A stretch of 64,000 nt of DNA from Minisyncoccota bacterium (GTDB taxonomy: Bacteria; Patescibacteriota; Minisyncoccia; Phycocordibacterales; UBA9973): contig JBAZVG010000001.1 of assembly GCA_041661005.1 (NCBI GenBank), positions 196,917 through 260,916 on the forward strand. Reading direction: 5' to 3'. The notes beneath the pieces were generated by a model. It saw only the letters and a list, made by a program, of their open reading frames with translations, was not told the DNA's origin and ran no database searches. The translations under genes and the position numbers were made by a program. Below are positions 16,795 to 40,386 of the stretch, piece by piece; position 1 is the stretch's first letter, and every line of letters starts with the position of its first letter.

Positions 16795-17814
16795 ATGAGA
16801 AAGATCCAGTCCCTTATCGTGGCAGTGGCACTCGCGTGCTTCACGGCCCTAACCTCCGCTAACGCGGCGATGTCTGTGCAGGCGTTCTTTTCACCGGGAG
16901 TGCCCACAGATTCAACCAACAACCTGTCGAGCCAGCAGAACAAAATGGCTTTTCTCGACGCTGGCAACCTCGTGGGCGGAGCCTACGAGACAAATCCGGT
17001 GGCGATGAATCTCCCGAAGGTGCTGAAGATCGGGGATGTGTTGCGTTTCCGGCCGGGCTTTCCTGGTTGGCTTGCAGTGCCGACTTCGTCGGGACCGGAT
17101 GCATATGGCGCTCGTCTCTTCTGCATGGTGAAGGTCACCAGCACGGAGGCGAATGTGAATCCACGCCGGGTTCGGGTTCGCACATGGACGCCTCTGAATG
17201 ACGGTGTCCTTTGGTCAACCAACTGGTTGGCCAGCGAGACCATCACCATGTCGTCAACCCTAACGGGCCGTAAGTATGGCCCTGATGGAGTTCGAGGTGG
17301 ATCGGATGATCAGCCGTTCAGTTCCGGAACCTCGGACCTGAACTTCAACGAACTCATCACGGTCGGTCCCAGGATATTCCTTGACGTCTTCAATCAAGAA
17401 GATTTAAGTCTTGCGCTCAACTACTGGGATGGCAAAAGGCCCATGGAGTTACACGTCGAGGTCACGGTTTACGCCGCAGACATGGTGACGGTGCTCGGAA
17501 GGAAGGAAATTGTCCTCACCGCGCGGCCGTATCTCTTGATCGACCGTGGTGGTCTCAACTCCGAGATTCGGTACGTTCGCATGGAGAGTGAACGGGCGAA
17601 AAACTACCAGCTAATGTCATCGCTGTGGCCTGGAGGCGGTTACTCTGACGTTCCAGCCGGAGGACTTCTGCATGATGGCAGTGTTTACACGAACACCAAT
17701 CTTGCCGATCGTCAGTTCTTCGGAGTCCGGGAGACGTCGGTCTCGGCAGCGGGGTTAAGGTCGGCAACGTCGGCTTCAAAACCTTCCAGTGGAGTCGAAA
17801 GCGGAAATGAGTAA
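16795..17814 (+). CDS. Secreted hypothetical protein (signal peptide), encoded in a GC-rich (~57%) block
   Basis: N-terminus MRKIQSLIVAVALACFTALTSANA. Codon usage and GC differ from the surrounding AT-rich genome. Confidence 0.6.
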   Translation: MRKIQSLIVAVALACFTALTSANAAMSVQAFFSPGVPTDSTNNLSSQQNKMAFLDAGNLVGGAYETNPVAMNLPKVLKIGDVLRFRPGFPGWLAVPTSSGPDAYGARLFCMVKVTSTEANVNPRRVRVRTWTPLNDGVLWSTNWLASETITMSSTLTGRKYGPDGVRGGSDDQPFSSGTSDLNFNELITVGPRIFLDVFNQEDLSLALNYWDGKRPMELHVEVTVYAADMVTVLGRKEIVLTARPYLLIDRGGLNSEIRYVRMESERAKNYQLMSSLWPGGGYSDVPAGGLLHDGSVYTNTNLADRQFFGVRETSVSAAGLRSATSASKPSSGVESGNE

Positions 17815-17998
17815 GATGATGAATATGTTATGGGGGCGAGCGGATATCCCAATCGCCCCAGAGTTAGCGAGATGTGTGTCTCGCCTGATGAGCTCAAAAG
17901 AGCGAAAACTCTTGACAAACAATTGACTTTATGCTAGCGTGAGTAAATTGATAATTAATTAATAGGTCGCAGGTAATTATAAAGTAATAAATAAATAT

Positions 17999-18922
17999 AT
18001 GAGCAAGACAATAAAGACTTTTTTGAAATATGGATTTGTGGCAATTGTCGCTATTTTTATAGCCTTTTTGTCGTCAGTCGCTTTTGCTATAGATGAGGTA
18101 AATGTTAATCCAGCAAGTGATTCGGAAAATGGTAATGAAAACGCAAATCCAGGAAGTGGTTCAGAAAGAGGTAGTGAGGTAAATGTTAATCCAGGAAATG
18201 GTTCAGAAAACGGTAATGAAGGTGGAAATGTGGATACAATCCCTGGCGATGTAACTCCTCCAGATGGTGGACCTACCGGAGATAGCTCTGGCAGTAGAAG
18301 TACTGGTAGTAGCAGAACAAGCACCCAGAATATTTCTGACATTAAAGTTACGCTTGTTGGTTCTTCTGTCTCTATAACTAATCTCGTTCGCGGAGGTACT
18401 TACACTATTTCTTGGGACGCATCAGTTCAAAACGCAGACACTTCTATTAGTTTAGTTTCTTCTTATGGTTCAAATATTTTAATCGGCACAAGCAAGAATG
18501 CAAACGGTGCTAATACTTTAAATTGGACTGTTCCCACATATCTAGCTCTCGGTACTTACACTTTACGCTTTACGGATTCTAGTAATCGAATGACCGACGC
18601 TTCGAACGTGTATAGGATAGTATCTCGAAGATCTTCTAACGCAGGCGCAGAAGCTCTAGGAACTGGTGGCGGAAATTTAATTGACACAGATGGAGAATCC
18701 TCAACTGTTTCGCCTGATGAAACAGAAGTTTTACCATCGGAAGATTCGCAAATTTCGGACGAGACTTCTCCCGTAGATCAGACAGCCGCAGTTGGAAATG
18801 CTTTTACAGATTTCTTGAGTAATAAGTATATTTTGTGGTTCTTTGTTCTTCTACTTATCATTGTTGGCGCTCTTTTTTTTCAAGAACGCAAAGATAGCGA
18901 TAAATTCCCTTTTAACAAGTAA
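17999..18922 (+). CDS. Cell-surface repeat protein (signal peptide, EVNVNP.(S/N).SENGNE repeats, Ser/Thr/Gly-rich, C-terminal TM anchor)
   Basis: N-terminal TM/signal, three imperfect ~20-aa repeats, C-terminal hydrophobic ILWFFVLLLIIVGALFF. Confidence 0.6.
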   Translation: MSKTIKTFLKYGFVAIVAIFIAFLSSVAFAIDEVNVNPASDSENGNENANPGSGSERGSEVNVNPGNGSENGNEGGNVDTIPGDVTPPDGGPTGDSSGSRSTGSSRTSTQNISDIKVTLVGSSVSITNLVRGGTYTISWDASVQNADTSISLVSSYGSNILIGTSKNANGANTLNWTVPTYLALGTYTLRFTDSSNRMTDASNVYRIVSRRSSNAGAEALGTGGGNLIDTDGESSTVSPDETEVLPSEDSQISDETSPVDQTAAVGNAFTDFLSNKYILWFFVLLLIIVGALFFQERKDSDKFPFNK

Positions 18923-30695: not shown

Positions 30696-30766
30696 TGGGG
30701 GATCGTCTAATGGTAGGACACATCCCTTTGAAGGATGTTATTTTGGTTCGAGTCCAAGTCCCCCAG
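30696..30766 (+). tRNA. tRNA-Gln (anticodon UUG)
   Basis: Acceptor TGGGGGA/TCCCCCA, anticodon stem-loop CATCC-CUUUGAA-GGATG, T-loop TTCGAGT. GC content jumps immediately at its 3' end. Confidence 0.8.
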
Positions 30767-32446
30767 CACGTTTGGACTCACAGAGGCGGATGCCTCATTT
30801 GGCCCTTTCGACAGGCCAGTATTTTCAGGTTCGATTGGCTTGTTTTCGGTTTCTGTATCCGACATGGACTTTTCGAGGATGAAGAACGGTTCGCGGGCTT
30901 CAATGCTCAGCTTTTTGGCCTTCAAAGTTAGGTTCGATCCGAATGTCACCAGCATCTCCTCTTTGGTCTTCGCATCGCCGTTCGCGAACCGCTCCCGAGC
31001 GGTCGAGGCAAATTCAAACGTGTCTTCGGACAGTTTTAACTGCTGCTCAATCCGCTTCCCGGCATCCTGAAGCAACTCCTCCAAAGCGGACTTTTCTTTG
31101 AGTAGCTTCACCCTCCTCTGACCGTATTCCTCATCCGATAGCTGGCTTCCGTCTGCGTTGCTGGACGAGGTTTTCAGACCCACCAGATTGTCGATTTCCT
31201 GCAAGCACGCTCGATATGCCTTCTGCTGGGCTTCGATGATGGCGCTTTGCTCCATGCTCTCCTTCGCGTGCAATTCATGGAGGAATTTGATGCAGTAGGC
31301 TTTGAATTTCTCGGAAATATGGATGCGGCCAAGATATTCACGAATCTGCCTTTCGAGATCAAATGCACTCACACTCTTCTGCGGACAAGATGGACGTTTG
31401 CTTTTTGAACAATGGTAATAGGTGTAGTGAAGGAAGAGCGGGTTCGTCATTTCTTCGATCGATGTCTGGCAGCGCGGGCAGGCGTTTCGCTTGCGGTAGG
31501 CAAACTTGAACCGGCATTGGCCACACATGACCTGGTGCTTTTCCTCAGCGGTCACCATCCGGTCACACTCGCCACAACGGATGAGGCCGGTGAAAGCAAA
31601 TTCAAAGTGCGATTGAGGCCGCGGACTGCCGTTGCGGCCAAGCAAAGTCTGCACCCGGTCATATTCCGCTTCGGTGATCATCGGCTCGTGCTTTCCCTGA
31701 TACCACTTGTTGCTGCCGTTTGGATATTCAAACCAGCCGTAATAGAAGGGCTTGGTGAAGATCTGGTAGATGGCGCTTCGGCAAAGAGGCTTGCCACCCA
31801 TCTTGCGCGTTGGCCTCGTGCGGAAGGCCCACTCTTTGTTGGCGATTTCCAGAATTCTCGGCGGGGTGTAGAGGCCGGTCAGCATCAAATCCCACATGCG
31901 ACGGAGCAGAGGAAAACGCTCCGGATCTTTGACCAGAGTGTTTTCGCCCGTCAGCTTGTCGGTGTGGTTCAAGTAGCCTGCCGGGGCGACGCCGGGATAC
32001 CAGCCGTTTTCGGTCTTGGTCTTGAGTCCCCGTTTTACGTTTTTGCTCAGGTCGTCCACGTATTTCTGCGCCATGCCGAATTCGATATACATGAGGATGA
32101 TATTGTCATCTTCACGGGCGTAAGTCTGGGCCGGGGTCATGATCCTGATGCCATGCTGTTTGATGCCCCAGATGATGGAACCTCCGTCCACCGGATTACG
32201 CGCCAGACGATCAAGTTTCCAGCAGATGACGCCGGCAGCTTCACCACGGTAAAGGCGTTGCATCATCTGATTGAACACCGGGCGCCCCGGATCTTTTGCG
32301 GATTTCGACTCGGTCAATACTTCGACAACTTGTAAATTTAACTTGGCCGCCAACTGCTCCAATTCGCGGGTTTGGGATTCAATGGAAAGAATCTGCCGGT
32401 CTTCGGCTTCGGATGATTTGCGACAATAGATGAAGTATCCTGACAT
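30707..32446 (-). CDS. Large serine recombinase (integrase of a tRNA-Gln-associated island)
   Basis: N-terminal resolvase catalytic domain IYCRKSSEAEDRQ..SIESQ ... LDRLARN, a recombinase domain, a zinc ribbon CGECDR...CGQC...CPRC, and a coiled coil. Its 3' end overlaps the tRNA-Gln 3' half on the opposite strand. Confidence 0.8.
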   Translation of the reverse strand: MSGYFIYCRKSSEAEDRQILSIESQTRELEQLAAKLNLQVVEVLTESKSAKDPGRPVFNQMMQRLYRGEAAGVICWKLDRLARNPVDGGSIIWGIKQHGIRIMTPAQTYAREDDNIILMYIEFGMAQKYVDDLSKNVKRGLKTKTENGWYPGVAPAGYLNHTDKLTGENTLVKDPERFPLLRRMWDLMLTGLYTPPRILEIANKEWAFRTRPTRKMGGKPLCRSAIYQIFTKPFYYGWFEYPNGSNKWYQGKHEPMITEAEYDRVQTLLGRNGSPRPQSHFEFAFTGLIRCGECDRMVTAEEKHQVMCGQCRFKFAYRKRNACPRCQTSIEEMTNPLFLHYTYYHCSKSKRPSCPQKSVSAFDLERQIREYLGRIHISEKFKAYCIKFLHELHAKESMEQSAIIEAQQKAYRACLQEIDNLVGLKTSSSNADGSQLSDEEYGQRRVKLLKEKSALEELLQDAGKRIEQQLKLSEDTFEFASTARERFANGDAKTKEEMLVTFGSNLTLKAKKLSIEAREPFFILEKSMSDTETENKPIEPENTGLSKGPNEASASVSPNVLGDLDSNQNNILQRDVSYH

Positions 32447-32532
32447 GGAAATGGGTGATTAAAATAAGGGAGGCGGGCGACCTTGGAGCCTGCATCCCTA
32501 TGCTAACGTACCGGCAAAATACGTCAATGAGG

Positions 32533-32796
32533 TCACTGGCTAAGACGGTTCTCGTCGGGCTCCTTGTCTGAACCCGGCTGCTTCAGAATCCCGAAGAAGC
32601 GAAGTAGACGCACAGCGATTTCTTGGATCTCGTCGTCGCTAAGACGCTTACCGAACTCCTCTTGGTAAATGGCTCTGAACTCCTCGATAGCTTCACGACT
32701 TAGTTGTTGTGGTGTTTTCATATCGTCCACTTTACTTGCTGTTACTCTTCGGCAAAGGACGGAAGAATTGCCACATACGGCATGTCCGCATTGCAC
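32533..32796 (-). CDS. Small helical hypothetical protein upstream of the recombinase (possible directionality or regulatory factor)
   Basis: ORF only; the likely true start is an internal Met (MKTPQQLSREAIEEF...). Confidence 0.3.
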   Translation of the reverse strand: MQCGHAVCGNSSVLCRRVTASKVDDMKTPQQLSREAIEEFRAIYQEEFGKRLSDDEIQEIAVRLLRFFGILKQPGSDKEPDENRLSQ

Positions 32797-33024
32797 TTGG
32801 AACTAGAATTCGGGGCACCTCCCTTGACGAATAGCGAGTTTCGTGCTTAAATACGAAAACCTTCCACCGAGTTCAAGAAGCTCGGTGTTTAATAGGTTTG
32901 CCATTTCTGGCAAAGGTTCCCGCCTTTGGTATTTTTACCATTGAGATATGGTGGTGTCGTGGAACTCGCATTGGGTTCCTCCGCTTCCACACTGATGACT
33001 TCACTTCAACTTCCAAACTATTTG

Positions 33025-33366
33025 CTATCTAATCGAAAACGCCTGACTCTTTCTCAAGAAGAGGTCGCATTTCTGTTGGGAGCGGGAAGGCGGCGTATTG
33101 TCCACCTTGGTCGTCGCGGCGAGCGTGACCCGCGAGAGGCGGTTGCCGGCATCGTCGTAGGCGTATGACTCAGCCGAACCGTCGGAATATGCGGCGTTGG
33201 TGAGGCGGGACAGGGGGTCGTGGGAATGCTCGAAAGTGGCGCCATTTACTTGCGATATCGCAAGGATAATGCAACCGCAGGCCAAAACGTAAACAGCGGT
33301 AAACATAATACACCTCATACTAGTTATTGTTAAATACGTTAAATACGATTCGGATAACCAACCCAA
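33025..33366 (-). pseudogene. Fragment: signal peptide plus a single YD/RHS repeat (YAYDDAGNRL), likely a remnant of an RHS-family protein
   Basis: Hydrophobic N-terminus MFTAVYVLACGCIILAISQVNGA, then a YxYDxxGRL-type repeat, then an unrelated tail. Confidence 0.4.
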
Positions 33367-33471
33367 TCATTGTAATCGAAATAACTAACCACATAGGTGG
33401 AAGAAGCGGCCCATCATGACCGAAAAATAAACCACGTAAAAACGAAATTATCTGCTGGATTGTTTGCTTTT

Positions 33472-34962
33472 TCATGGAAGCTGAAAGAGATTTATATAAG
33501 CGTTCACACCCTGTTGAATTTGATCGCCTCGCAGTTGGAAAAGATTTAACGTATAGGTGTTCAAAAAAACAGCGCTATACGAAGTCAAAGCATCATCAAC
33601 AGACTGCCACGCCTCAAGCGGATTATGTAGTGCATACGTCAGGTTCTCGTCAATGTGCATAATACTTTCACCCAGAGTGCTGAAATCGACGCCCCGAGCA
33701 CGCAATTCGGCCTGACTTGATTGGAAAACGCCGTAAACAGTGGAGGCCCTTGCAGTTAATCTGAGCGTGCGACCGATACCATGAAGGTCGATAACGTTTC
33801 CCGGTGATAATCGCAGTTGTCCAATCGTAACTCGACCGTATCCCGTATCCACATACAGTTCGAGCCGCGAACCAATTTCGCGCAACAGCCATTCAATCGA
33901 TTCTCTTGGCAAATCGCCAAAATTTAATTGACCGAATATATTGCCTGAGGTTGTTCCTCCTTCCTGCGCCGACAAGCCACTTACATCAAGCCATTTCAAA
34001 GGATTGTTCAGCGCATACACATAGCGATTCAAACTCTGCCCGTCGCTGTCCTTCCCAGTAACTGGGTCTTTAGTGGCAAATCGGCCCAGTTGCGGGCTGA
34101 AATAGCGAGCGCGGGCATGATAAAGACCATTACCGTCATCCATGATACCATACCGCCCCAGATAACGGAAGGGCTGCGGAGAATCCCCCTCGGAATTCGC
34201 CACGACGCCAAACGAATCAAACGCGTAGGCGTCGGTTTCGTCTCCGTTGGTGTTGAATGAATCATTCCCACCGATGGACTGAACTTGATGCGAATACAGT
34301 TTGTTAATCAGACGTTCGCGTTCCATGAACTGCTCTGGTTGCAGAAATGGACGATCCCAGCGTAAGTAGTGTTTGAAATAAATACATCTGAGAATGGTTC
34401 GCATCTCTGACGCACTAACGAGTACACGCTGATCTGGTAAGAGCACCATTAAGTCTGCTGGATAACTTGTCTGTCCATCGTAAGTTTGAAGAACTGGATA
34501 ATGGTAAGCAAAATCCACGGTGCGAAATCCGAGTCGCTTGAAATACCCGATCAGTTTGTCGTCGGGCTCCCATTGTTGGGAACTATTCCGCCTCCGTGCT
34601 ACCTCAAACACAATGGAAAAACCAGGTGGGTAGTTCTGTGCGAGAAACTGTTCTATACTCCTAATAGCACGACTTGGCAAAAGGCCAGGCCGTTTGGAGT
34701 CGCGAATGCATAGATACTCAAAGAAGAAAAGTTGTTCCTCTATGAAAAAGCTGTACTGCAAATATCCCACAACGGTGTGGTCATTTTGAAGTGCAAAGCA
34801 TTTGAACTCATCGGCGAGAACTTCTTTGCTGTGCTCGATCCAATAGAGAATCTGGCGCTCTGGATTCTGAGCTTCCGGCAGTATGGTTTCCCGGTAGATA
34901 CTCAAAGCTGCATACAAGCGATTCTTCCCGCGATTTGTCCGGTCGATTGGCTTAAGAAACAT
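33472..34962 (-). CDS. Chimeric protein: N-terminal GNAT-like fold, RHS repeat-associated core domain, C-terminal ~170-aa variable (toxin-like) domain
   Basis: The core reads PFRYLGRYGIMDDGNGLYHARARYFSPQLGRFATKDPVTGKDSDGQSLNRYVYALNNPLKWLDVSGL, which matches the RHS core consensus (..Y.ARYYDP..GRF.S.DP ... N.Y.Y..NNP....DPSGL). The N-terminus FSIVFEVARRR..KLIGYFKRLGF is GNAT-like. Confidence 0.55.
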   Translation of the reverse strand: MFLKPIDRTNRGKNRLYAALSIYRETILPEAQNPERQILYWIEHSKEVLADEFKCFALQNDHTVVGYLQYSFFIEEQLFFFEYLCIRDSKRPGLLPSRAIRSIEQFLAQNYPPGFSIVFEVARRRNSSQQWEPDDKLIGYFKRLGFRTVDFAYHYPVLQTYDGQTSYPADLMVLLPDQRVLVSASEMRTILRCIYFKHYLRWDRPFLQPEQFMERERLINKLYSHQVQSIGGNDSFNTNGDETDAYAFDSFGVVANSEGDSPQPFRYLGRYGIMDDGNGLYHARARYFSPQLGRFATKDPVTGKDSDGQSLNRYVYALNNPLKWLDVSGLSAQEGGTTSGNIFGQLNFGDLPRESIEWLLREIGSRLELYVDTGYGRVTIGQLRLSPGNVIDLHGIGRTLRLTARASTVYGVFQSSQAELRARGVDFSTLGESIMHIDENLTYALHNPLEAWQSVDDALTSYSAVFLNTYTLNLFQLRGDQIQQGVNAYINLFQLP

Positions 34963-35287
34963 AGATAATTGTTAATTATCCGTGATGTGGGCGAGATGTC
35001 TTGTTCGGAAATGTGTGTTTCGTATCCGACATTGCGGTAGTCAGTGCAGGAGACCAAGGAAGATGTTGCTAGTCTGCTGGATTCCTCTCTCTTGGTTCTT
35101 CGCAAGACAGTGTTCTGTCACAAAAGTGATCGAATTACAGTGGGCTTTTGTTTTCGGAGCGAGGCTTTGATAACGGATTTCTGGTGCATACACATACCAC
35201 AGCCTAATGTTTTTGAATTACTGGTCTATGAGTTATGATTGTCCTCCTGCGAGATTTATAGAGAAATAGTTTGCTGGATGAGGGCGT

Positions 35288-35761
35288 ATGTTGAGGTATA
35301 TGCATATTTGGTGCTATAATGAGAACATGTGGGTTATTTATGCATTTATAGCTGCATTGTTGTGGGGTCTTGATTATGCACTTACAGAAAAAGTACTAAA
35401 CAGGATTACATTCTCGACATTGCTCAGTATTGAGTTGTTTTTCGGTCTGCTTGGTATGCTCTTGTTGGGGCTTTTACGGGGGACGTATTGGAAAGACTGG
35501 TCAGTGATTCTCTCTTCCCAAAAGATAATATGGCACGTTGTTATAATTGTGCTTGTGTTCAACATCGCCAACACTTTTATCGTTCTTTCCATTGGAAACA
35601 AGAACGCCACCCTTGCGGGCTTAATTGAGATTTCTTACCCCTTGTTTATTGCCGTTTTTTCGTGGTTCTTGTTCAAGGAGAGCCATGTTAACCTATGGAC
35701 AGGAATTGGTGCGGTATTGGTGTTTAGCGGGATTGGGTTGATCTACTACGTCAACAAATGA
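35288..35761 (+). CDS. EamA/DMT-family transporter half (4-5 TM), hypothetical
   Basis: Hydrophobic protein with an EamA-like WGLDYALTEK region; 157 aa, likely a fragment. Confidence 0.4.
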   Translation: MLRYMHIWCYNENMWVIYAFIAALLWGLDYALTEKVLNRITFSTLLSIELFFGLLGMLLLGLLRGTYWKDWSVILSSQKIIWHVVIIVLVFNIANTFIVLSIGNKNATLAGLIEISYPLFIAVFSWFLFKESHVNLWTGIGAVLVFSGIGLIYYVNK

Positions 35762-35862
35762 AGAGGAAAAGGGACGCTCATCCTTGCCGGCGTCGGCAAA
35801 TAAGAAAAAGGGCGACCCGATTGGATCGCCCTTGTGATTAGTAGTCTTCCGGCACCCAAGCG

Positions 35863-36240
35863 GTGAGTTTGTTTGAGCAGGCAATTTTGGTCGCTCAAGC
35901 ATTACATGATTTGCGATATGAAGGATTCTGGATGGGTAGTCTTGGTGTCCTTTATATGGAAGAAAAGCACTACAAGGACGCGGAAGCTTTCTTGCAACGC
36001 GCTTTGGCAATCGCTATTCAAATAGGTGACCAACGTTACGAAGGAACGCATTTGAGTTGGCTTGGGGATTTATACACCACGACGGGCCAATTTCAGAAAG
36101 CTCGTGAATGCCTTGAAAGGGCCGTGAAATTGGCAGAGGATCTGCAGATTGAATCATGGATTCAGCAGCGCAAAGCGAAAATTGAGAAATTGGAACGTTT
36201 GGAGAAGGAGGCGGGTGACCACGCTCGTCCTCAAATCTGA
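35863..36240 (+). CDS. TPR-repeat protein fragment
   Basis: Three TPR-like helical repeats (..AE.FLQRALAIA...GDQRYEG..L..LGDLY...GQFQKA.E.LERA..LA). Confidence 0.4.
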   Translation: MSLFEQAILVAQALHDLRYEGFWMGSLGVLYMEEKHYKDAEAFLQRALAIAIQIGDQRYEGTHLSWLGDLYTTTGQFQKARECLERAVKLAEDLQIESWIQQRKAKIEKLERLEKEAGDHARPQI

Positions 36241-36855
36241 TTGGACCTTATTGGACAAAGCTCGAACTCTTTTCGATGAACATCGAAGTGATACGCAGAA
36301 AACGATGCCGATGAACCGACCGGATGATTTCACCGTCGCGCTCGGTGATTTGGATGGGGGCAACCGCAGATGCGCGTTTGAAACGGGGAAGACGATGGGA
36401 TTCCATCCATCCACGGTAACGAAGATCAAGCTCCTAATGTAGGAGGCGGGGTTTGCGCACTGCGCCAAGTCACATAATCTCGGTGATGTTTCAGTATAAT
36501 CATTGGAAGCAAATTGTCACTATTACATTAACACTCTGCAATCCTAGCTTGACGGACAATAGGCACTTACTTACGGATAAACGATAAAAGCCCCTTCGGG
36601 GTGTTGGATGATGAATAATGGATGTTCAAACGCGCCAATATCGTAGCACAAAAAAAACTCCGAATACATACAATGACGTATTCGGAGTCACGCTTTGATA
36701 CAACCAACAGATGCGTGATTCTTGTTGGGCGACCCTTTGGTCCGCTCAAGGCTCGGGTAGATCCAAGAGAAGCCGAGTTAAGACGAGGTTATCCCAGGGA
36801 ACTCGGACTGCTGGGACACACATTATAGCACAGGTAAGTGGCAATGTGTCATCAT

Positions 36856-37581
36856 CTAAACATTGTCGTCTTGATTTAGTCCACCCCTTACCTCCGCTAG
36901 CCTCCGCGACAGAGACAGCAATTCGTCTTCCATTCCAAAATATGACCAGTCCTGAATGTAGCGGGTGTAGAACGAGTAAATGCCAGCACTGAATCCGTTC
37001 AATAGCCTATCCGATATCCACTCATTTCCAAACTCAATACGGAAATCATCGAGAATGTCATCATTCTTGAGTCTTAAGAGTTCCGCAGCTTCGCCTTCAA
37101 CTGCGTCTTGGCACAACGCTAAAACCTCTCGACAGCGTTGCCTGATGTCTAACTGGTGCGTCGGAATACGGGTCCAGTTATGGCGTTCGGAGAGGTGGAG
37201 GTCATCTCTAAAGCATCCAAGGAGTGTATCGTTAGTCGCCAATTCTTCCCAGATCTTCCGGGCTCTTGGAGTGACCGTAATTGCGTCGCCTGGACTCAAT
37301 AAAGATGGTGCATACCCTCTGTCAGATTCAATCAAGCGTTCGGCATATAATTCATCGAGCATGTCGCTCATCTGCTCTGGCTTTTTCGCGAAATAGCTAG
37401 CACCAATTGCATTCATGGCATCCAACGTCCATGGCGACCGTGTGCGCTCTTCAACGAATGGTTCCACCAGTCGGCGATGAGAATGCGGCTGCCACAACGG
37501 CAGCAGATGGGGAATCAACCAGCGCTTGCCACCCGGCCATTTGAGCGGTGGCCGGTTCTCCGTTGTGCTCGTAATCGGCAA
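36856..37581 (-). CDS. Hypothetical protein with an N-terminal remnant of a D12-class (Dam-like) adenine MTase motif
   Basis: PLKWPGGKRWLIPHLLPL....RLVEPFVE matches the Dam N-terminal motif (KWAGGK..L...I......Y.EPF.GGG), but the rest is unrelated. Confidence 0.35.
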   Translation of the reverse strand: MPITSTTENRPPLKWPGGKRWLIPHLLPLWQPHSHRRLVEPFVEERTRSPWTLDAMNAIGASYFAKKPEQMSDMLDELYAERLIESDRGYAPSLLSPGDAITVTPRARKIWEELATNDTLLGCFRDDLHLSERHNWTRIPTHQLDIRQRCREVLALCQDAVEGEAAELLRLKNDDILDDFRIEFGNEWISDRLLNGFSAGIYSFYTRYIQDWSYFGMEDELLSLSRRLAEVRGGLNQDDNV

Positions 37582-37743
37582 GGCTGGAGAGAAGTCACGC
37601 GAGTTGTGACTGACGACAGAAACACGCCTTTGAAATGGGCGTAGATGAGTGCGGCTGCCCGTTCTGCTTTGTGACCATAGGCTCGAACATCGTCCAGTCC
37701 TCTCAGCATTTTAAATGAGAGTGATTACTTGCAATTATCCTTG

Positions 37744-37766
37744 CTTGCAATGAAAAAAATTGCAAG
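37744..37766. promoter_or_regulatory. Dyad CTTGCAAT-N7-ATTGCAAG (plus an extra TTGCAAT half-site at 37729) upstream of an extended -10 (TGATATAAT ~37787-37795) preceding the putative REase gene
   Basis: Read from the sequence. Confidence 0.4.
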
Positions 37767-37801
37767 TTTATAACTTTCTAGGAAAGTGATATAATCCCAA
37801 C

Positions 37802-38638
37802 ATGTCTAGTAATTTAATCGGAAAAACAGAAGCTATCAATTTTCTTAATGTATCAGAAAAAGATTTTAAAAATTACCATGAATCTAGTAAAGAAATAGAA
37901 GGTCAAAAAATATCAGGAAGATGGTATTTTGATAAACAAAAATTAGAAGAATGGAAAAAATTAAAGGGAGAAAGAACCATATTTTTAACTATTAGTGAAT
38001 ATGAAAAATGTTTTCAATTTGCAATTAAAATGGTTTATGGAGGACTTTCTCTTAATGGAATAAGAGGACAAAGAACAGAGGTTCAAGCAGCAGACGATGT
38101 TATTTTAGGAATTCTTGCAGAACATGCTGTTAAGAATTTTCTAAAAAATAAATTCTCAATCGAAATAGAATTAGACGAAGAAGTTCACCCAGAACGTATT
38201 ACCCCTCAAGACTTTGATAAAATCAAGGTAAATAATGTTTTCAAAACACCTAAAATAGGTGTGGGTATCAAAGCAAGTAAAATGAAAAACGCCTTTTTGG
38301 TTTTAGGAGGTAATGAAGTAGACCTCAAGGAAAGAAGAAGTGATGTTTATGTATTTGCCAGAGTAGGTTTACCAAGCGACCACTTATTTAGGATTTTACG
38401 AGACCATTCATTCTTTAAACAAGTAAGAGAATTTATGGATAAAGATAAAAAATTTAGAAAAATAGAATTACTAAAACCAATTCCAATATGGATATGTGGT
38501 TTTACATACAAAGAAGAGTTAGAAAAAGTAACTGAAATTCCGGGTCAAGAATTTGCAAATGGGTATAGATATGTTAAGTCTGTAAGTAAACTTCACAACT
38601 CAGACCAAGACTGGAAAAATCTTATAAAAAAACTTTAA
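37802..38638 (+). CDS. Putative type II restriction endonuclease with N-terminal excisionase/MerR-type HTH (HTH_17-like)
   Basis: Convergent with and abutting a C5-MTase gene (2-nt gap). N-terminus LNVSEKDFKNYHES..ISGRWYFDKQKLEEWKK matches the (G)RW.F....L..W pattern. No clear PD-(D/E)xK motif could be assigned by eye. Confidence 0.5.
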   Translation: MSSNLIGKTEAINFLNVSEKDFKNYHESSKEIEGQKISGRWYFDKQKLEEWKKLKGERTIFLTISEYEKCFQFAIKMVYGGLSLNGIRGQRTEVQAADDVILGILAEHAVKNFLKNKFSIEIELDEEVHPERITPQDFDKIKVNNVFKTPKIGVGIKASKMKNAFLVLGGNEVDLKERRSDVYVFARVGLPSDHLFRILRDHSFFKQVREFMDKDKKFRKIELLKPIPIWICGFTYKEELEKVTEIPGQEFANGYRYVKSVSKLHNSDQDWKNLIKKL

Positions 38639-38639
38639 T

Positions 38640-39647
38640 CTAGTATGCCATGGCTAGGGACAACCTAGGTTGTGTAGCTTGTTGCGTTTGTCCATTCAGC
38701 ACCTCCTGAATATTGTTCGCAATTCTACCAATGACAGAAATACTTACGGAATTACCGAATTGTTTATATAAATGTGAATCTGAAATATTTGGTAATTTAT
38801 AGGAATTAGGAAAACCTTGTAGGCGAGCACATTCTCTTGGTGTTAACTTTCGTATACCACGAGAATCCCTTACTAAGGGGACATTATGACCTCCTGTACC
38901 CATATTTGCAGTTAAAGTAGGACATACTCCACTTTTATTATGTCTTATATATTGTCGTCTCCATTGATAGACATCTCCAATTTCAAAATCGTACTTTTTT
39001 AACTTTTCAAACAAAGGTTTGTCGTTATAATAGTATTTCTGATCAATAAATTCTGGCTTTTCCAAAATATCTAAAACAGTTTTATTTCTTTCAATTTTTT
39101 CAGGAAATTCAAAACTATTAATATATCCAGTATCTTTTCTAAAACCAACAATATATATCCGCTCTCTGTTTTGGGGAACATTCCCATAATGCATACTATT
39201 TAATATTTCAGCTTTAACATCATAACCAAGCTCATCCAATGTTTTCAGAATGACACGAAATGTATTTCCATTATCATGATTATAAAGATTTTTTACATTT
39301 TCTAAAAGAAAGCCAATGGGTTTTCTTTCATCAATTATTCTTGCAACATCAAAAAATAAATTACCCCTGTCATCTTTAAATCCATGACGATAACCAGCAA
39401 TAGAAAATGCCTGACATGGGAATCCACCCAATAAAAAATCAAATTGGGGTAAATCACTAATTTTAATTTTTCTTATATCCTCAACAGTTAAAGCTGTATC
39501 TTTAAAATTTAGATCGTAAGTATCTTTGCATTTAGGTTCAAAATCATTAGCAAAGACTGTATTAAAGCCAGCTTTTTCAAAGCCAATTCTTATACCTCCG
39601 ACTCCCGCAAATAAGTCTATTGTTCTATATTTTTTTACATTTGCCAT
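38640..39647 (-). CDS. DNA (cytosine-5)-methyltransferase
   Basis: Motifs I DLFAGVGG, IV GFPCQAFS, VI ENVKNL, VIII QNRERIYIVG, X RKLTPRECARLQGFP. Confidence 0.9.
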   Translation of the reverse strand: MANVKKYRTIDLFAGVGGIRIGFEKAGFNTVFANDFEPKCKDTYDLNFKDTALTVEDIRKIKISDLPQFDFLLGGFPCQAFSIAGYRHGFKDDRGNLFFDVARIIDERKPIGFLLENVKNLYNHDNGNTFRVILKTLDELGYDVKAEILNSMHYGNVPQNRERIYIVGFRKDTGYINSFEFPEKIERNKTVLDILEKPEFIDQKYYYNDKPLFEKLKKYDFEIGDVYQWRRQYIRHNKSGVCPTLTANMGTGGHNVPLVRDSRGIRKLTPRECARLQGFPNSYKLPNISDSHLYKQFGNSVSISVIGRIANNIQEVLNGQTQQATQPRLSLAMAY

Positions 39648-39718
39648 TGATTATAATTATAACATTATCCCTTTAAAAAAGCAGCAATCAACTTTTACAG
39701 TTATGTTATAATGCTTTT

Positions 39719-40084
39719 ATGAGTGATGAAGAGAATAGTATAAATAGACTAGGCATTGACCAGACTAGTTTGGGGAAACTAAAACCTGAAGATCTTAATA
39801 ATGCAAAAACTGCTGGAATGGTTTTAAATTACTTAACCTCTCTAGAGTCTGAAAATACTCAACTTAAAACAAAAAATGAAACCTTGAGTACTTATGTGAG
39901 TAGTTATAATAATCAAAAAAATAATTCAAAAATTGCTGCAACTTTATCTTTAATTTCAGTTGTCTCTATTGGTTTTGCAATAAATATTCTTACAAGTGAT
40001 AGTAAAAATTATGGAGGTTATATACTTTTAATCATTGGTATTGTGCTGCAGTTATATAGTACCTATTTAACTTATAAAGAATGA
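39719..40084 (+). CDS. Hypothetical membrane protein (2 C-terminal TM)
   Basis: ORF only. Confidence 0.35.
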   Translation: MSDEENSINRLGIDQTSLGKLKPEDLNNAKTAGMVLNYLTSLESENTQLKTKNETLSTYVSSYNNQKNNSKIAATLSLISVVSIGFAINILTSDSKNYGGYILLIIGIVLQLYSTYLTYKE

Positions 40085-40386
40085 GATATATTTTTAATAC
40101 ATCAGGTGAATACGTGGCCTTTATTTCAGGAGATAATTTATTTAATCTGAACTGCGATTGGATTGGTTTTATTTTAAACGGCAATGAAGTTTATTCATCA
40201 AACGATTTATCTTTTATTGGCTATATTAGTGCAGATGATAGAATCTTAGGTAAAAGAAATGATTTACGTAAACTTCGTCCATTACGACCACTTCGTCCAT
40301 TACGACCACTTCGTCCATTACGACCACTTCGCAGACTAAGAATGCTTAGAGTGCCTTATCCATGGTTTGATGTGTTTGAAAAATAA
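40081..40386 (+). CDS. Hypothetical protein with (LRP)n tandem repeat
   Basis: The ORF contains RKLRPLRPLRPLRPLRPLRRLRMLR, encoded by a 9/18-bp DNA tandem repeat (40272-40335). Confidence 0.3.
   Translation: MRYIFNTSGEYVAFISGDNLFNLNCDWIGFILNGNEVYSSNDLSFIGYISADDRILGKRNDLRKLRPLRPLRPLRPLRPLRPLRRLRMLRVPYPWFDVFEK

What the first reader, a model, noticed from the sequence alone, without database searches (positions are those of the whole stretch)
33025..34962. Decayed polymorphic-toxin locus: GNAT-like domain fused upstream of an RHS core plus C-terminal variable domain, and a separate signal-peptide plus YD-repeat fragment
ORF 33472-34962 has the RHS repeat-associated core (..PFRYLGRYGIMDDGNGLYHARARYFSPQLGRFATKDP...NRYVYALNNPLKWLDVSGL) in its middle, followed by ~170 aa of non-conserved C-terminal sequence of the kind that encodes the toxin in RHS and other polymorphic toxins. 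Its first ~240 aa are instead GNAT-like, not YD repeats. Downstream, a 113-aa ORF has a signal peptide and one YAYDDAGNRL repeat. Together these look like shuffled remnants (an orphan core-CT cassette fused to a GNAT/immunity-like gene). Alternatively, it is a novel GNAT-delivered toxin architecture.
Basis: partly seen in the sequence, partly recalled or inferred. Interest (0 to 1): 0.6.

Follow-up and report, generated by a model that had tools for sequence, protein, structure and literature searches.

The report
Chimeric GNAT–Rhs toxin-tail gene relic
A 496-codon gene in a foreign DNA island of a tiny candidate-phyla-radiation bacterium is an in-frame join of two unrelated gene fragments: an acetyltransferase-like domain, and the tail end of an Rhs toxin with its likely small immunity gene. 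It is a stranded remnant, not a new toxin-delivery design.

Summary
ORF 33472-34962(-) has an Rhs-associated core (TIGR03696, E=1.2e-18) at aa 249-330. Its first 242 aa form a GNAT fold, and a 166-aa C-terminal domain (CT) follows. The downstream 113-aa ORF carries one YD repeat.

The GNAT part is not immunity-like. It is the complete soluble domain (65-80% identical) of a conserved ~331-aa GNAT+2TM protein. Elsewhere that protein always sits with a methyltransferase in a 1.7-kb invertible cassette beside a Xer-like recombinase. The window keeps only the left recombination site and codons 1-242.

The Rhs part starts exactly at aa 243. It is colinear with orphan-type and full-length rhs loci elsewhere. 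Its CT belongs to an uncharacterised family found at the C-termini of true 1500-2260-aa Rhs proteins. A 51-aa membrane ORF overlaps the stop codon (ATGA), recurs after this CT family, and is the best immunity candidate.

The 113-aa ORF is the truncated start of a conserved downstream signal-peptide/YD/fn3 gene, not an Rhs N-terminus. There is no YD shell, no secretion domain and no full-length rhs in the window. The setting is a 7-kb unameliorated island of other gene fragments at tRNA-Gln, beside a serine recombinase, in a Paceibacterota genome. It is most likely a non-delivering relic.

The parts
33472..34962 (-). Chimeric 496-aa ORF (GNAT domain + last YD repeat + Rhs core + CT). Stop codon at 33472-33474.
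   Evidence: Identical protein P0001 is annotated in NCBI as 'RHS repeat-associated core domain-containing protein [Candidatus Paceibacterota bacterium]'.
34964..34980 (-). Left recombination site (inverted-repeat core GATAA-TTAACAA-TTATC) of the invertible GNAT/methyltransferase cassette, retained just upstream of the ATG.
   Evidence: One mismatch to the 15-locus consensus GATAACTNNNAATTATC. DNA homology to the cassette (L001) runs from window 34981 to 34256 at 74%.
34237..34962 (-). Codons 1-242: the complete soluble GNAT-fold domain of the ~331-aa GNAT+2TM family. The 2-TM tail is missing.
   Evidence: 65-80% aa identity to P0002-P0120. 89 columns invariant in 29 relatives are all retained. 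pN 0.12 against pS 0.79 versus L001. GNAT fold. GC 45.3%, the same as L001.
33973..34236 (-). Codons 243-330: last degenerate YD repeat (YAFDSFG) plus the Rhs repeat-associated core, ending in PLKWLDVSGL.
   Evidence: TIGR03696 E=1.2e-18. 64-78% identical to Rhs proteins P0121-P0125 starting exactly at 'TDAYAFDSFG'. tblastn against full-length Rhs P0144 aa 1245-1500 gives E=6e-45.
33475..33972 (-). Codons 331-496: C-terminal (CT) effector domain of an uncharacterised polymorphic CT family.
   Evidence: phmmer against 1.84e9 representatives gave 11 hits. All are at C-termini: true Rhs proteins (P0138, P0144 of 1513 aa, P0147 of 2259 aa) and P/S/T-rich non-Rhs proteins. 78% nt identity to L010/L011. 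dN/dS 0.21.
33320..33475 (-). 51-aa small membrane-protein ORF. Its ATG overlaps the stop of the 496-aa ORF (ATGA). Candidate cognate immunity gene.
   Evidence: Sequence. Homologous to a separate 68-aa ORF right after the related CT in L013 (38% over 32 aa, E=5e-6) and to the N-terminus of P0131 after the CT in L010/L011. Loci with other CTs carry other genes at this position.
33025..33366 (-). 113-aa ORF: the truncated 5' third of a conserved signal-peptide/one-YD-repeat/fn3 gene. The likely real start is ATG 33318 or 33306. Homology ends at 33085.
   Evidence: PF05593 24.3 bits. 65% identical to P0131 aa 32-106, window 33309-33085. Full-length homologues of 239-550 aa with an fn3 domain follow rhs units in L010, L012, L013 and L029.
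30768..37710 (.). About 7-kb foreign island (GC 41-54% against host 34-38%) holding the locus. The right end is approximate.
   Evidence: An independent Logan assembly, L014, is 100% identical to window 32393-40301 and spans the right island/host junction.
30707..32446 (-). Large serine recombinase at the left end of the island. Its 3' end overlaps tRNA-Gln (30696-30767, +).
   Evidence: Resolvase + Recombinase + Zn_ribbon_recom. tRNA-Gln.
36856..37581 (-). A second chimeric ORF in the island: only the first ~43 aa are Dam-type methyltransferase, and the rest is unrelated.
   Evidence: TIGR00571 and PADLOC MTase models match aa 8-43 only, at profile positions ~3-36 of ~270.
37723..37739 (+). 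Second cassette-type recombination-site look-alike (GATTACTTGCAATTATC), located at the right GC boundary of the island.
   Evidence: This and the left inverted repeat are the only two loci in 64 kb within 1 mismatch of the consensus. With up to 2 mismatches there are 6 matches against 1.28 expected. Its significance is unexplained.

Best explanation
Window 33085-34984 (minus strand) is a patch of two unrelated foreign gene fragments joined in frame. It lies inside a recently acquired, structurally degraded 7-kb island of a Paceibacterota genome.

Fragment A is the left recombination site plus codons 1-242 of a ~331-aa protein. Those codons encode the whole GNAT-fold domain. Elsewhere the protein carries two C-terminal transmembrane helices, and it is encoded with a class-I SAM methyltransferase in a 1.7-kb invertible cassette next to a Xer-like tyrosine recombinase.

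Fragment B is an orphan-type rhs module. It holds the last YD repeat, the Rhs core, a 166-aa CT effector domain of an uncharacterised family, a translationally coupled 51-aa membrane protein (the likely immunity protein), and the first ~95 codons of the conserved downstream signal-peptide/YD/fn3 gene.

The A/B junction falls between codons 242 and 243. It is most simply a deletion or illegitimate recombination event that happened to be in frame. The product has no YD shell, no signal or PAAR-type trafficking domain, and no full-length rhs partner nearby. It therefore cannot work as a delivered polymorphic toxin.

Shown: the domain identities, the exact breakpoints, colinearity with intact loci, the singleton status of the fusion, and the foreign island context. 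Inferred: non-function as a toxin, the immunity role of the 51-aa ORF, a membrane-directed activity of the CT, and the deletion mechanism.
For: Breakpoints: homology to the GNAT+2TM family stops at 'GDE' (aa 242), the linker before the TM helices. Rhs homology starts at 'TDAYAFDSFG' (aa 243).

Two origins: GC is 45.3% for the GNAT piece (L001 45.3%) and 49.1% for the rhs piece (L010 47.9%).

Singleton: of more than 250 hits in 5.8e9 proteins, only P0001, the window's own protein, covers both halves. All other relatives are ~331 aa.

Lost cassette parts: tblastn finds no methyltransferase, tyrosine recombinase, TM tail or other Rhs sequence in the 64 kb.

Colinearity of fragment B: L010/L011 carry core tail + CT, an ATGA overlap, then the next gene, at 78-81% nt identity. 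L013 carries an orphan-like core+CT, a 68-aa ORF and an fn3 gene. The intact 1845-aa Rhs in L029 has fn3/PKD/DUF6531/10 RHS repeats/core/toxin, then an immunity-like gene, then a YD+fn3 gene.

The CT sits at the C-terminus of bona fide Rhs proteins.

Degraded context: a Dam fragment is fused to unrelated sequence. The island has unameliorated GC, at tRNA-Gln beside a serine recombinase.

Assembly: an independent assembly is 100% identical across the ORF and the right junction.
Against: There is no stop or frameshift in 496 codons. The GNAT moiety keeps all 89 family-invariant residues, and the CT shows dN/dS 0.21 against its nearest relative. Point-mutational decay is therefore absent, and at least the GNAT domain, or the toxin/immunity pair, could still be active. 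The cut falls neatly at a domain boundary. ATGA coupling to the 51-aa ORF is preserved. Only 64 kb of an 813-kb contig was examined, so a full-length rhs partner elsewhere in the genome is not excluded. The lack of decay is also expected if the island is recent, since its GC is not ameliorated.
Confidence: 0.75

Rival explanations
1. The fusion is a live gene with a new use. A cytoplasmic GNAT-core-CT protein and the coupled 51-aa membrane protein form a toxin/immunity (addiction-like) pair that stabilises the island. Alternatively, the GNAT domain remains a working acetyltransferase that simply swapped its membrane anchor for an inert Rhs tail.
For: The reading frame is open. All 89 invariant GNAT residues are kept, and pN is far below pS. 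The CT/51-aa ORF pair is intact with an ATGA overlap and is conserved in L013 and L010.
Against: The fusion is a singleton. Intactness is equally expected from recent acquisition (unameliorated GC). No significant promoter signal lies upstream: 6 sites found against 4.6 expected. The surrounding genes are fragments.
Confidence: 0.13
2. It is a functional orphan rhs-CT/immunity reservoir. The module waits to recombine, through its core region, with a full-length rhs gene elsewhere in the genome, as described for Salmonella orphan Rhs modules.
For: The module starts at the same point as the orphan-like module in L013, about 4 codons apart. It keeps the core plus CT plus a candidate immunity gene. 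Orphan modules and their recombination are described in PMC4436062.
Against: There is no other Rhs sequence in the 64-kb window. The host is a reduced-genome Paceibacterota bacterium with about 36% GC, while the module is foreign at 49% GC. The module is welded to a GNAT gene rather than lying behind an rhs gene.
Confidence: 0.05
3. It is a genuinely new delivery architecture in which the GNAT domain replaces the YD shell or trafficking domain and carries the Rhs core+CT to a target.
For: Only the in-frame fusion at a domain boundary and the intact core motif PLKWLDVSGL.
Against: There is no signal peptide, PAAR, VgrG-binding or shell element. The GNAT family otherwise always ends in two TM helices and lives in an invertible cassette. 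There is no second example in 5.8e9 proteins.
Confidence: 0.03
4. It is an assembly chimera: the junctions, or the island's placement in a CPR genome, are artefacts of metagenome assembly or binning.
For: The GC jump is sharp. The island contains several odd fusion ORFs.
Against: The Logan single-run assembly (SRR18595301) reproduces window 32393-40301 at 100% identity. That stretch includes the 496-aa ORF and the right island/host junction. The left end abuts an intact tRNA-Gln next to a serine recombinase, a typical integration arrangement. Both assemblies probably derive from the same reads, so this support is not fully independent.
Confidence: 0.04

Closest known systems
Orphan rhs-CT/immunity modules of Rhs loci (Enterobacteriaceae; reviewed in PMC4436062, which cites Koskiniemi et al. 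2014 on Salmonella)
   Same: It begins at or just before the conserved core and lacks the N-terminal trafficking and YD-repeat region. It carries a variable CT after a PxxxxD-x-x-G-L boundary. A small gene follows immediately, coupled by an ATGA overlap.
   Different: It does not lie downstream of a full-length rhs gene (none in 64 kb). It is fused in frame to an unrelated GNAT domain that supplies a start codon. The immunity role of the 51-aa ORF is untested. The host is a CPR bacterium, and the module sits on a foreign island.
Full-length Rhs/YD toxins of the same lineage (for example the 1845-aa protein of L029, and P0144 and P0147)
   Same: The core is 64-78% identical to lineage members. 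P0138, P0144 and P0147 share the CT family. The downstream gene order CT, then immunity, then the signal-peptide/YD/fn3 gene is the same.
   Different: The window has only the last ~254 aa. The fn3/PKD/DUF6531 N-terminal region and the YD shell (10-23 RHS repeats in relatives) are absent.
GNAT-superfamily N-acetyltransferases (for example PDB 3ey5, PaiA 1tiq, AAC(6')-Ii 1n71)
   Same: The predicted fold of aa 1-245 (Foldseek probability 1.00, TMt up to 0.75).
   Different: Sequence identity is 11-18%. No Pfam GNAT model reaches threshold. There is an extra ~60-aa helical C-terminal extension (aa 184-228). In all relatives the domain is anchored by two TM helices.
Tyrosine-recombinase-driven invertible DNA segments (the fim switch; hsdS 'epigenetic invertons', PMC7672463; gene-altering programmed inversions, PMC9881135)
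   Same: The parent cassette of the GNAT moiety is flanked by short inverted repeats. It lies next to a dedicated Xer-like recombinase and is found in both orientations between identical flanks.
   Different: The segment carries two whole convergent genes (GNAT+2TM and a small-molecule-type SAM methyltransferase), not a promoter or alternative hsdS halves. The window holds only a dead-end fragment: one repeat and two-thirds of one gene.

Membership tests
Rhs/YD polymorphic toxin (full-length) | RHS repeat-associated core domain (TIGR03696 / IPR022385) | tested here: met
   aa 249-330, 67.4 bits against a cut-off of 32.5, E=1.2e-18.
Rhs/YD polymorphic toxin (full-length) | PxxxxDPxGL boundary motif between core and CT | tested here: inconclusive
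   The window reads PLKWLDVSGL: P, D, G and L are kept, and the second P is V. Relatives vary at the same position: DISGL, DASGL, DVNGL, DPSGL. Self-cleavage was not testable.
Rhs/YD polymorphic toxin (full-length) | Large YD-repeat shell (many PF05593 repeats; typically more than 1500 aa) | tested here: not met
   No Pfam family matches the 496-aa ORF. Only one degenerate repeat (YAFDSFG) precedes the core. Relatives have 10-23 repeats.
Rhs/YD polymorphic toxin (full-length) | N-terminal secretion or trafficking module | tested here: not met
   The N-terminus is a GNAT-fold domain. No signal, PAAR or DUF6531 hit.
Rhs/YD polymorphic toxin (full-length) | Variable C-terminal domain shared among different delivery scaffolds | tested here: met
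   CT relatives sit at the C-termini of Rhs proteins (P0138, P0144, P0147, P0122, P0145) and of non-Rhs P/S/T-rich proteins (P0139-P0143, P0146).
Rhs/YD polymorphic toxin (full-length) | Cognate immunity gene immediately downstream | tested here: inconclusive
   The 51-aa membrane ORF has an ATGA overlap. It is homologous to the ORF after the related CT in L013 and to the fused N-terminus in L010. Loci with other CTs have other genes at that position. Only three loci were available, and protection is untested.
Orphan rhs-CT/immunity module | Starts in or just before the core-homology region and lacks the N-terminal part | tested here: met
   Rhs homology starts at aa 243, 6 aa before the core HMM match. 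L013's orphan-like module starts about 4 codons earlier.
Orphan rhs-CT/immunity module | Lies downstream of a full-length rhs gene that shares the core (the recombination partner) | tested here: not met
   tblastn with three full-length Rhs proteins finds nothing else in the 64-kb window. The rest of the 813-kb contig could not be examined.
GNAT superfamily | GNAT fold (β1-α1-α2-β2-β3-β4-α3-β5-α4-β6) | tested here: met
   The AF2 model has high confidence over aa 1-245 with that order of elements. All top 50 PDB matches are GNATs.
GNAT superfamily | Sequence match to a curated GNAT model (for example PF00583) at its gathering threshold | tested here: not met
   No hit for the window protein. 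Relatives reach only 13-15 bits against a cut-off of 20.7.
GNAT superfamily | Acyl-CoA pyrophosphate-binding motif (Q/R-x-x-G-x-G/A) and acyl-transfer activity | tested here: inconclusive
   At the β4-α3 position the family has R-x-G-L-x-P-S (window RPGLLPS, aa 91-97; G93 and P96 nearly invariant, S97 invariant). This is not the canonical motif. Activity cannot be tested here.
Invertible GNAT+2TM / methyltransferase cassette with Xer-like recombinase (unnamed; defined here from 19 loci) | Two inverted recombination sites, a convergent methyltransferase gene and an adjacent tyrosine recombinase | tested here: not met
   The window has only the left site (34964-34980) and codons 1-242. There is no methyltransferase, recombinase or TM tail. 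It is a fragment of a cassette, not a cassette.

The most novel reading that the evidence does not exclude
The chimera is not dead. The cytoplasmic GNAT-Rhs-core-CT protein, possibly self-cleaving at LDVSG|L, and its ATGA-coupled 51-aa membrane partner would act as a toxin/immunity addiction pair, or as a retained immunity gene, on a mobile island of a CPR episymbiont. That would be the first use of an Rhs core+CT outside a YD shell. A related possibility concerns the cassette-type recombination sites found at the fusion (34964-34980) and at the island border (37723-37739). Xer-like recombinases of the invertible cassette may help create such gene fusions and insert foreign DNA.
Probability: 0.07. 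Interest if true: 0.6.

Novelty: new member of a known kind. Interest (0 to 1): 0.3.

Why it matters
In itself it matters little. It is one more stranded Rhs core-CT fragment, and the result warns against reading a long open chimeric ORF as a new toxin architecture.

Three by-products have some value.

(1) It defines an uncharacterised CT effector family with a candidate 51-68-aa membrane immunity partner. That pairing hints at a membrane-directed toxin that could be tested directly.

(2) It documents an unameliorated foreign island, built from gene fragments of soil-type bacteria, inside a reduced CPR genome. This bears on how such episymbionts acquire and erode foreign DNA.

(3) Tracing the GNAT half uncovered a widespread invertible two-gene cassette with a dedicated Xer-like recombinase. 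It occurs in Acidobacteriota, Verrucomicrobiota, Planctomycetota, Bradyrhizobium and others. I did not find it described, and it deserves its own study.

Tried and rejected
1. The word-index protein search with the CT alone returned nothing, not even the protein itself. I replaced it with an exhaustive phmmer search.

2. The CT structure prediction, made with a 10-sequence alignment, gave mean pLDDT 44. No fold search was run on it. In the whole-protein model the CT was also weak.

3. The CT profile against PDB sequences gave only a partial FabG match at E=0.0056 (19.8 bits). I judged it spurious. Pfam scans of all CT relatives gave nothing.

4. I first read the 51-aa and 113-aa ORFs as the two halves of one frameshifted P0131-type gene. 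I dropped this after L013 showed the same split arrangement, with a homologous separate small ORF. The fused form in L010/L011 is the variant.

5. A search for att-type direct repeats at the island ends found only short matches consistent with chance.

6. I asked whether the neighbouring EamA gene is part of the cassette unit. It is 29% identical to the EamA beside one cassette lineage only, and absent from the other loci. This looks like coincidence.

7. PADLOC defence models gave no hit for the 496-aa ORF or the GNAT family.

8. Literature: the programmed-inversion survey PMC9881135 does not list a GNAT/methyltransferase cassette. This was a text search only.

10. The serine recombinase is only about 24% identical to phage integrases, so the island type could not be named.
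Full report
**Setting**

The window comes from an 813-kb contig of a 'Candidatus Paceibacterota bacterium' MAG. The 496-aa protein is 100% identical to P0001, which is held by NCBI, JGI and Logan. Host DNA has 34-38% GC. The stretch from about 30768 to about 37710 has 41-54% GC.

The island begins directly after an intact tRNA-Gln (30696-30767, + strand). The 3' end of a large serine recombinase gene (30707-32446, - strand; Resolvase + Recombinase + Zn ribbon) overlaps that tRNA. An independent single-run assembly (Logan, SRR18595301; L014) is 100% identical to window 32393-40301. It therefore reproduces the ORFs studied here and the right island/host junction.

**Observation check**

ORFs 33472-34962(-), 496 aa, and 33025-33366(-), 113 aa, exist as described.
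- The Rhs-associated core is confirmed by HMM: TIGR03696 at aa 249-330, 67.4 bits against a cut-off of 32.5, E=1.2e-18.
- Pfam finds nothing in the 496-aa ORF.
- The 113-aa ORF has one RHS repeat just above threshold (PF05593, 24.3 against 22).

**The N-terminal 242 residues**

These residues are 65-80% identical to a very conserved family of ~331-aa proteins with no Pfam domain. The family occurs in Bradyrhizobium, Acidobacteriota, Verrucomicrobiota, Gemmataceae, Opitutaceae, Gemmatimonadota and others.

- **Breakpoint.** The alignment shows homology running from Met1 to 'GDE' (aa 240-242). There the relatives continue into a linker and two transmembrane helices, while the window continues into Rhs sequence.
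- **Fold.** An AF2 model built with this alignment is confident over aa 1-245 and has the GNAT order of secondary-structure elements. All top 50 Foldseek PDB hits are GNAT acetyltransferases, best 3ey5 with E=8.6e-7 and TMt 0.75. Sequence models give only sub-threshold hints (PF00583, E=0.03-0.13 in relatives). 'GNAT-like' is therefore correct at the fold level.
- **State of preservation.** The moiety is undamaged. All 89 columns invariant in 29 relatives are retained, and pN=0.12 against saturated pS=0.79 versus L001.

**Where that GNAT gene normally lives**

In every locus with enough flank, the 331-aa gene converges on and overlaps a ~200-240-aa Methyltransf_11 gene. The two form a ~1.73-kb module that lies next to a Xer-like tyrosine recombinase. 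That recombinase scores below the XerC/XerD cut-offs. It is found on either side of the module and in either orientation.

- **Recombination sites.** The module is bounded by inverted sites with core GATAA-C(T)NNN(A)A-TTATC. The two copies in a locus share their spacer, and spacers differ between loci. This holds in 15 loci.
- **Inversion.** L004 and L006 have flanks that are 99.98% identical. The 1732-bp module between them is 100% identical but inverted, with the breakpoints inside the repeats.
- **Population signal.** Many Logan contigs of 1720-1746 bp consist of the module alone. This fits branching at the repeats within single samples.
- **What the window keeps.** The window retains the left site (34964-34980, GATAATTAACAATTATC) and codons 1-242. 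DNA homology to L001 spans window 34981-34256 at 74%. The TM tail, methyltransferase, right site and recombinase are absent from the whole 64 kb.

**The Rhs half**

Rhs homology starts exactly at aa 243 ('TDAYAFDSFG', the last degenerate YD repeat). It is 64-78% identical to P0121-P0125. The whole stretch 34236-33475 aligns to the last ~255 residues of full-length Rhs proteins (P0144, E=6e-45).

The boundary motif reads PLKWLDVSGL. Relatives of this lineage vary at the same position.

**The 166-aa CT**

The CT has no Pfam, NCBIfam or PDB match. An exhaustive phmmer search found 11 relatives, and in every one the match is C-terminal.
- Some are true Rhs proteins: P0138; P0144 (1513 aa, DUF6531 + 15 RHS repeats); P0147 (2259 aa, 23 repeats).
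- Others are signal-bearing P/S/T-rich non-Rhs proteins.

That distribution is the signature of a polymorphic-toxin CT domain. Its fold could not be predicted (pLDDT 44), so its activity is unknown.

**Downstream genes and related loci**

The closest relatives of the rhs piece are L010 (GCA_964355815.1) and L011. Their core tail + CT is 78% identical at the DNA level, and the next gene starts at an ATGA overlap, as in the window.

The window's 51-aa ORF (33320-33475) encodes a small membrane protein with the motif I.FL..F..GPL.PP.W followed by a TM helix. It has two homologues:
- a separate 68-aa ORF immediately after the related CT of L013 (38% over 32 aa, pairwise E=5e-6);
- the N-terminus of P0131 in L010/L011, where it is fused to the following gene.

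Loci with unrelated CTs carry different genes at this position: a 131-aa TM protein in L012 and a HEAT-repeat protein in L029. The small ORF therefore co-varies with the CT family and is the best immunity candidate. This is an inference from three loci. If it holds, a membrane-embedded immunity protein suggests a membrane-directed toxin. That further step is speculative.

The 113-aa ORF matches aa 32-106 of P0131 (65%, window 33309-33085). It then diverges and stops. Full-length homologues (239-550 aa) have a signal peptide or TM helix, one YD repeat, an fn3 domain and a C-terminal domain. They follow the rhs-CT(-immunity) unit in L010, L012, L013 and L029. So this ORF is the truncated start of the conserved downstream neighbour, not the N-terminus of an Rhs toxin.

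The intact Rhs in L029 shows what is missing from the window: 1845 aa with fn3, PKD, DUF6531, 10 RHS repeats, core and Tox-REase-7.

**The junction and its likely origin**

The two moieties differ in GC. The GNAT piece is 45.3%, as is L001. The rhs piece is 49.1%, against 47.9% for L010. The join lies within GGA GAC GAA | ACC GAC. The parental sequences share only loose similarity there (GGT GAT GAA A.. against GGC AAT GTG A..), which is compatible with illegitimate recombination.

L013 carries an orphan-like core+CT whose Rhs homology begins about 4 codons earlier, with unrelated sequence upstream. The rhs piece was therefore probably already an orphan-type module before it met the GNAT fragment.

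The island holds at least one other fusion of the same kind: in ORF 36856-37581, only aa 8-43 are Dam-type methyltransferase.

**Functional verdict**

The product has no YD shell, no trafficking domain and no full-length rhs partner within 64 kb. The fusion is a singleton among more than 250 relatives. The neighbourhood is made of fragments. Together these facts make a delivered toxin very unlikely.

The absence of point-mutational decay does not show selection, because the island's GC is not ameliorated and the acquisition is probably recent. I cannot exclude that the GNAT domain, or the CT/51-aa pair, is still active in the cytoplasm (rival 1, about 0.13).

**Comparison with known systems**

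The rhs half works like, and by its anatomy resembles, an orphan rhs-CT/immunity module as defined in PMC4436062. It fails one defining feature: it does not lie behind a full-length rhs gene. It is not a full-length Rhs toxin, since the shell and trafficking domain were tested and not met.

The N-terminal half is a GNAT by fold but belongs to no curated GNAT family. The parent cassette resembles tyrosine-recombinase invertons (PMC7672463, PMC9881135) but flips two whole genes. A text search of PMC9881135 did not show it.

**Scores**

- Novelty: new member of a known kind (an orphan-type Rhs module with an uncharacterised CT family, accidentally fused).
- Interest: 0.3. The value lies mostly in the by-products: the CT/immunity family, foreign fragment DNA in a CPR genome, and the invertible cassette.

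Noticed in passing
L004 7978-9709, L006 3945-5676, L002 7971-9708, L001/L003/L018 (whole contigs), L015-L027; relic in window 34237-34984: A widespread ~1.73-kb invertible cassette. It holds a GNAT+2TM gene and a convergent, overlapping Methyltransf_11 gene, bounded by inverted GATAA-N7-TTATC sites. It always lies next to a Xer-like tyrosine recombinase. L004 and L006 have the module inverted between flanks that are 99.98% identical. Many 1720-1746-bp Logan contigs equal the module alone. It occurs in Bradyrhizobium, Acidobacteriota, Verrucomicrobiota, Gemmataceae, Opitutaceae, Gemmatimonadota and Consotaella. I did not find it in the one inversion survey I searched.
   Followed up: partly
window 37723-37739 (+): GATTACTTGCAATTATC is one mismatch from the cassette recombination-site consensus. 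It sits at the right GC boundary of the island. Apart from the GNAT gene's own site, it is the only such match in 64 kb. It may be chance, since it lies in an AT-rich host promoter region with TTGCAA repeats, or it may be a secondary Xer-type site involved in the island's history.
   Followed up: partly
window 30696-32446: A large serine recombinase gene's last ~60 nt run antisense through an intact tRNA-Gln at the left edge of the foreign island. No att-like direct repeat was found at the other end. The recombinase is only ~24% identical to known phage integrases.
   Followed up: partly
window 36856-37581 (-): A 241-aa ORF in which only aa 8-43 match Dam-type or orphan DNA methyltransferases. 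The rest has no match. This is another chimeric or truncated gene in the same island.
   Followed up: partly
window 37802-39647: A host-GC restriction-modification pair directly right of the island: a 278-aa ORF with an HTH and a type II restriction-enzyme-like match (PADLOC REase_II, E=1.7e-10), and a convergent C-5 cytosine DNA methyltransferase (PF00145, E=4e-97).
   Followed up: no
L022 8738-9007: One cassette locus (an Opitutaceae MAG) has a second, partial copy of the GNAT gene (aa 1-90, 73% identity) just beyond the recombinase gene. Truncated 5' copies of this gene therefore occur elsewhere too.
   Followed up: no
window 16795-18922: A local GC peak (52.5% at 17001-18000 in a ~36% GC genome) covers two ORFs (339 and 307 aa) with no Pfam match. 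It may be another foreign insert.
   Followed up: no
L010 576-1385 versus L013 1119-2167 and window 33025-33475: The small membrane ORF and the signal-peptide/YD/fn3 gene are separate in the window and in L013, but fused into one 269-aa ORF (P0131) in L010/L011. The two forms differ by 73 nt.
   Followed up: partly
window 35288-35761 (+): A single-domain EamA transporter gene (157 aa) lies divergent from the chimeric ORF. A 29%-identical single-domain EamA sits beside the recombinase in one cassette lineage (L004-L008) but not in the others. This is probably coincidence.
   Followed up: yes
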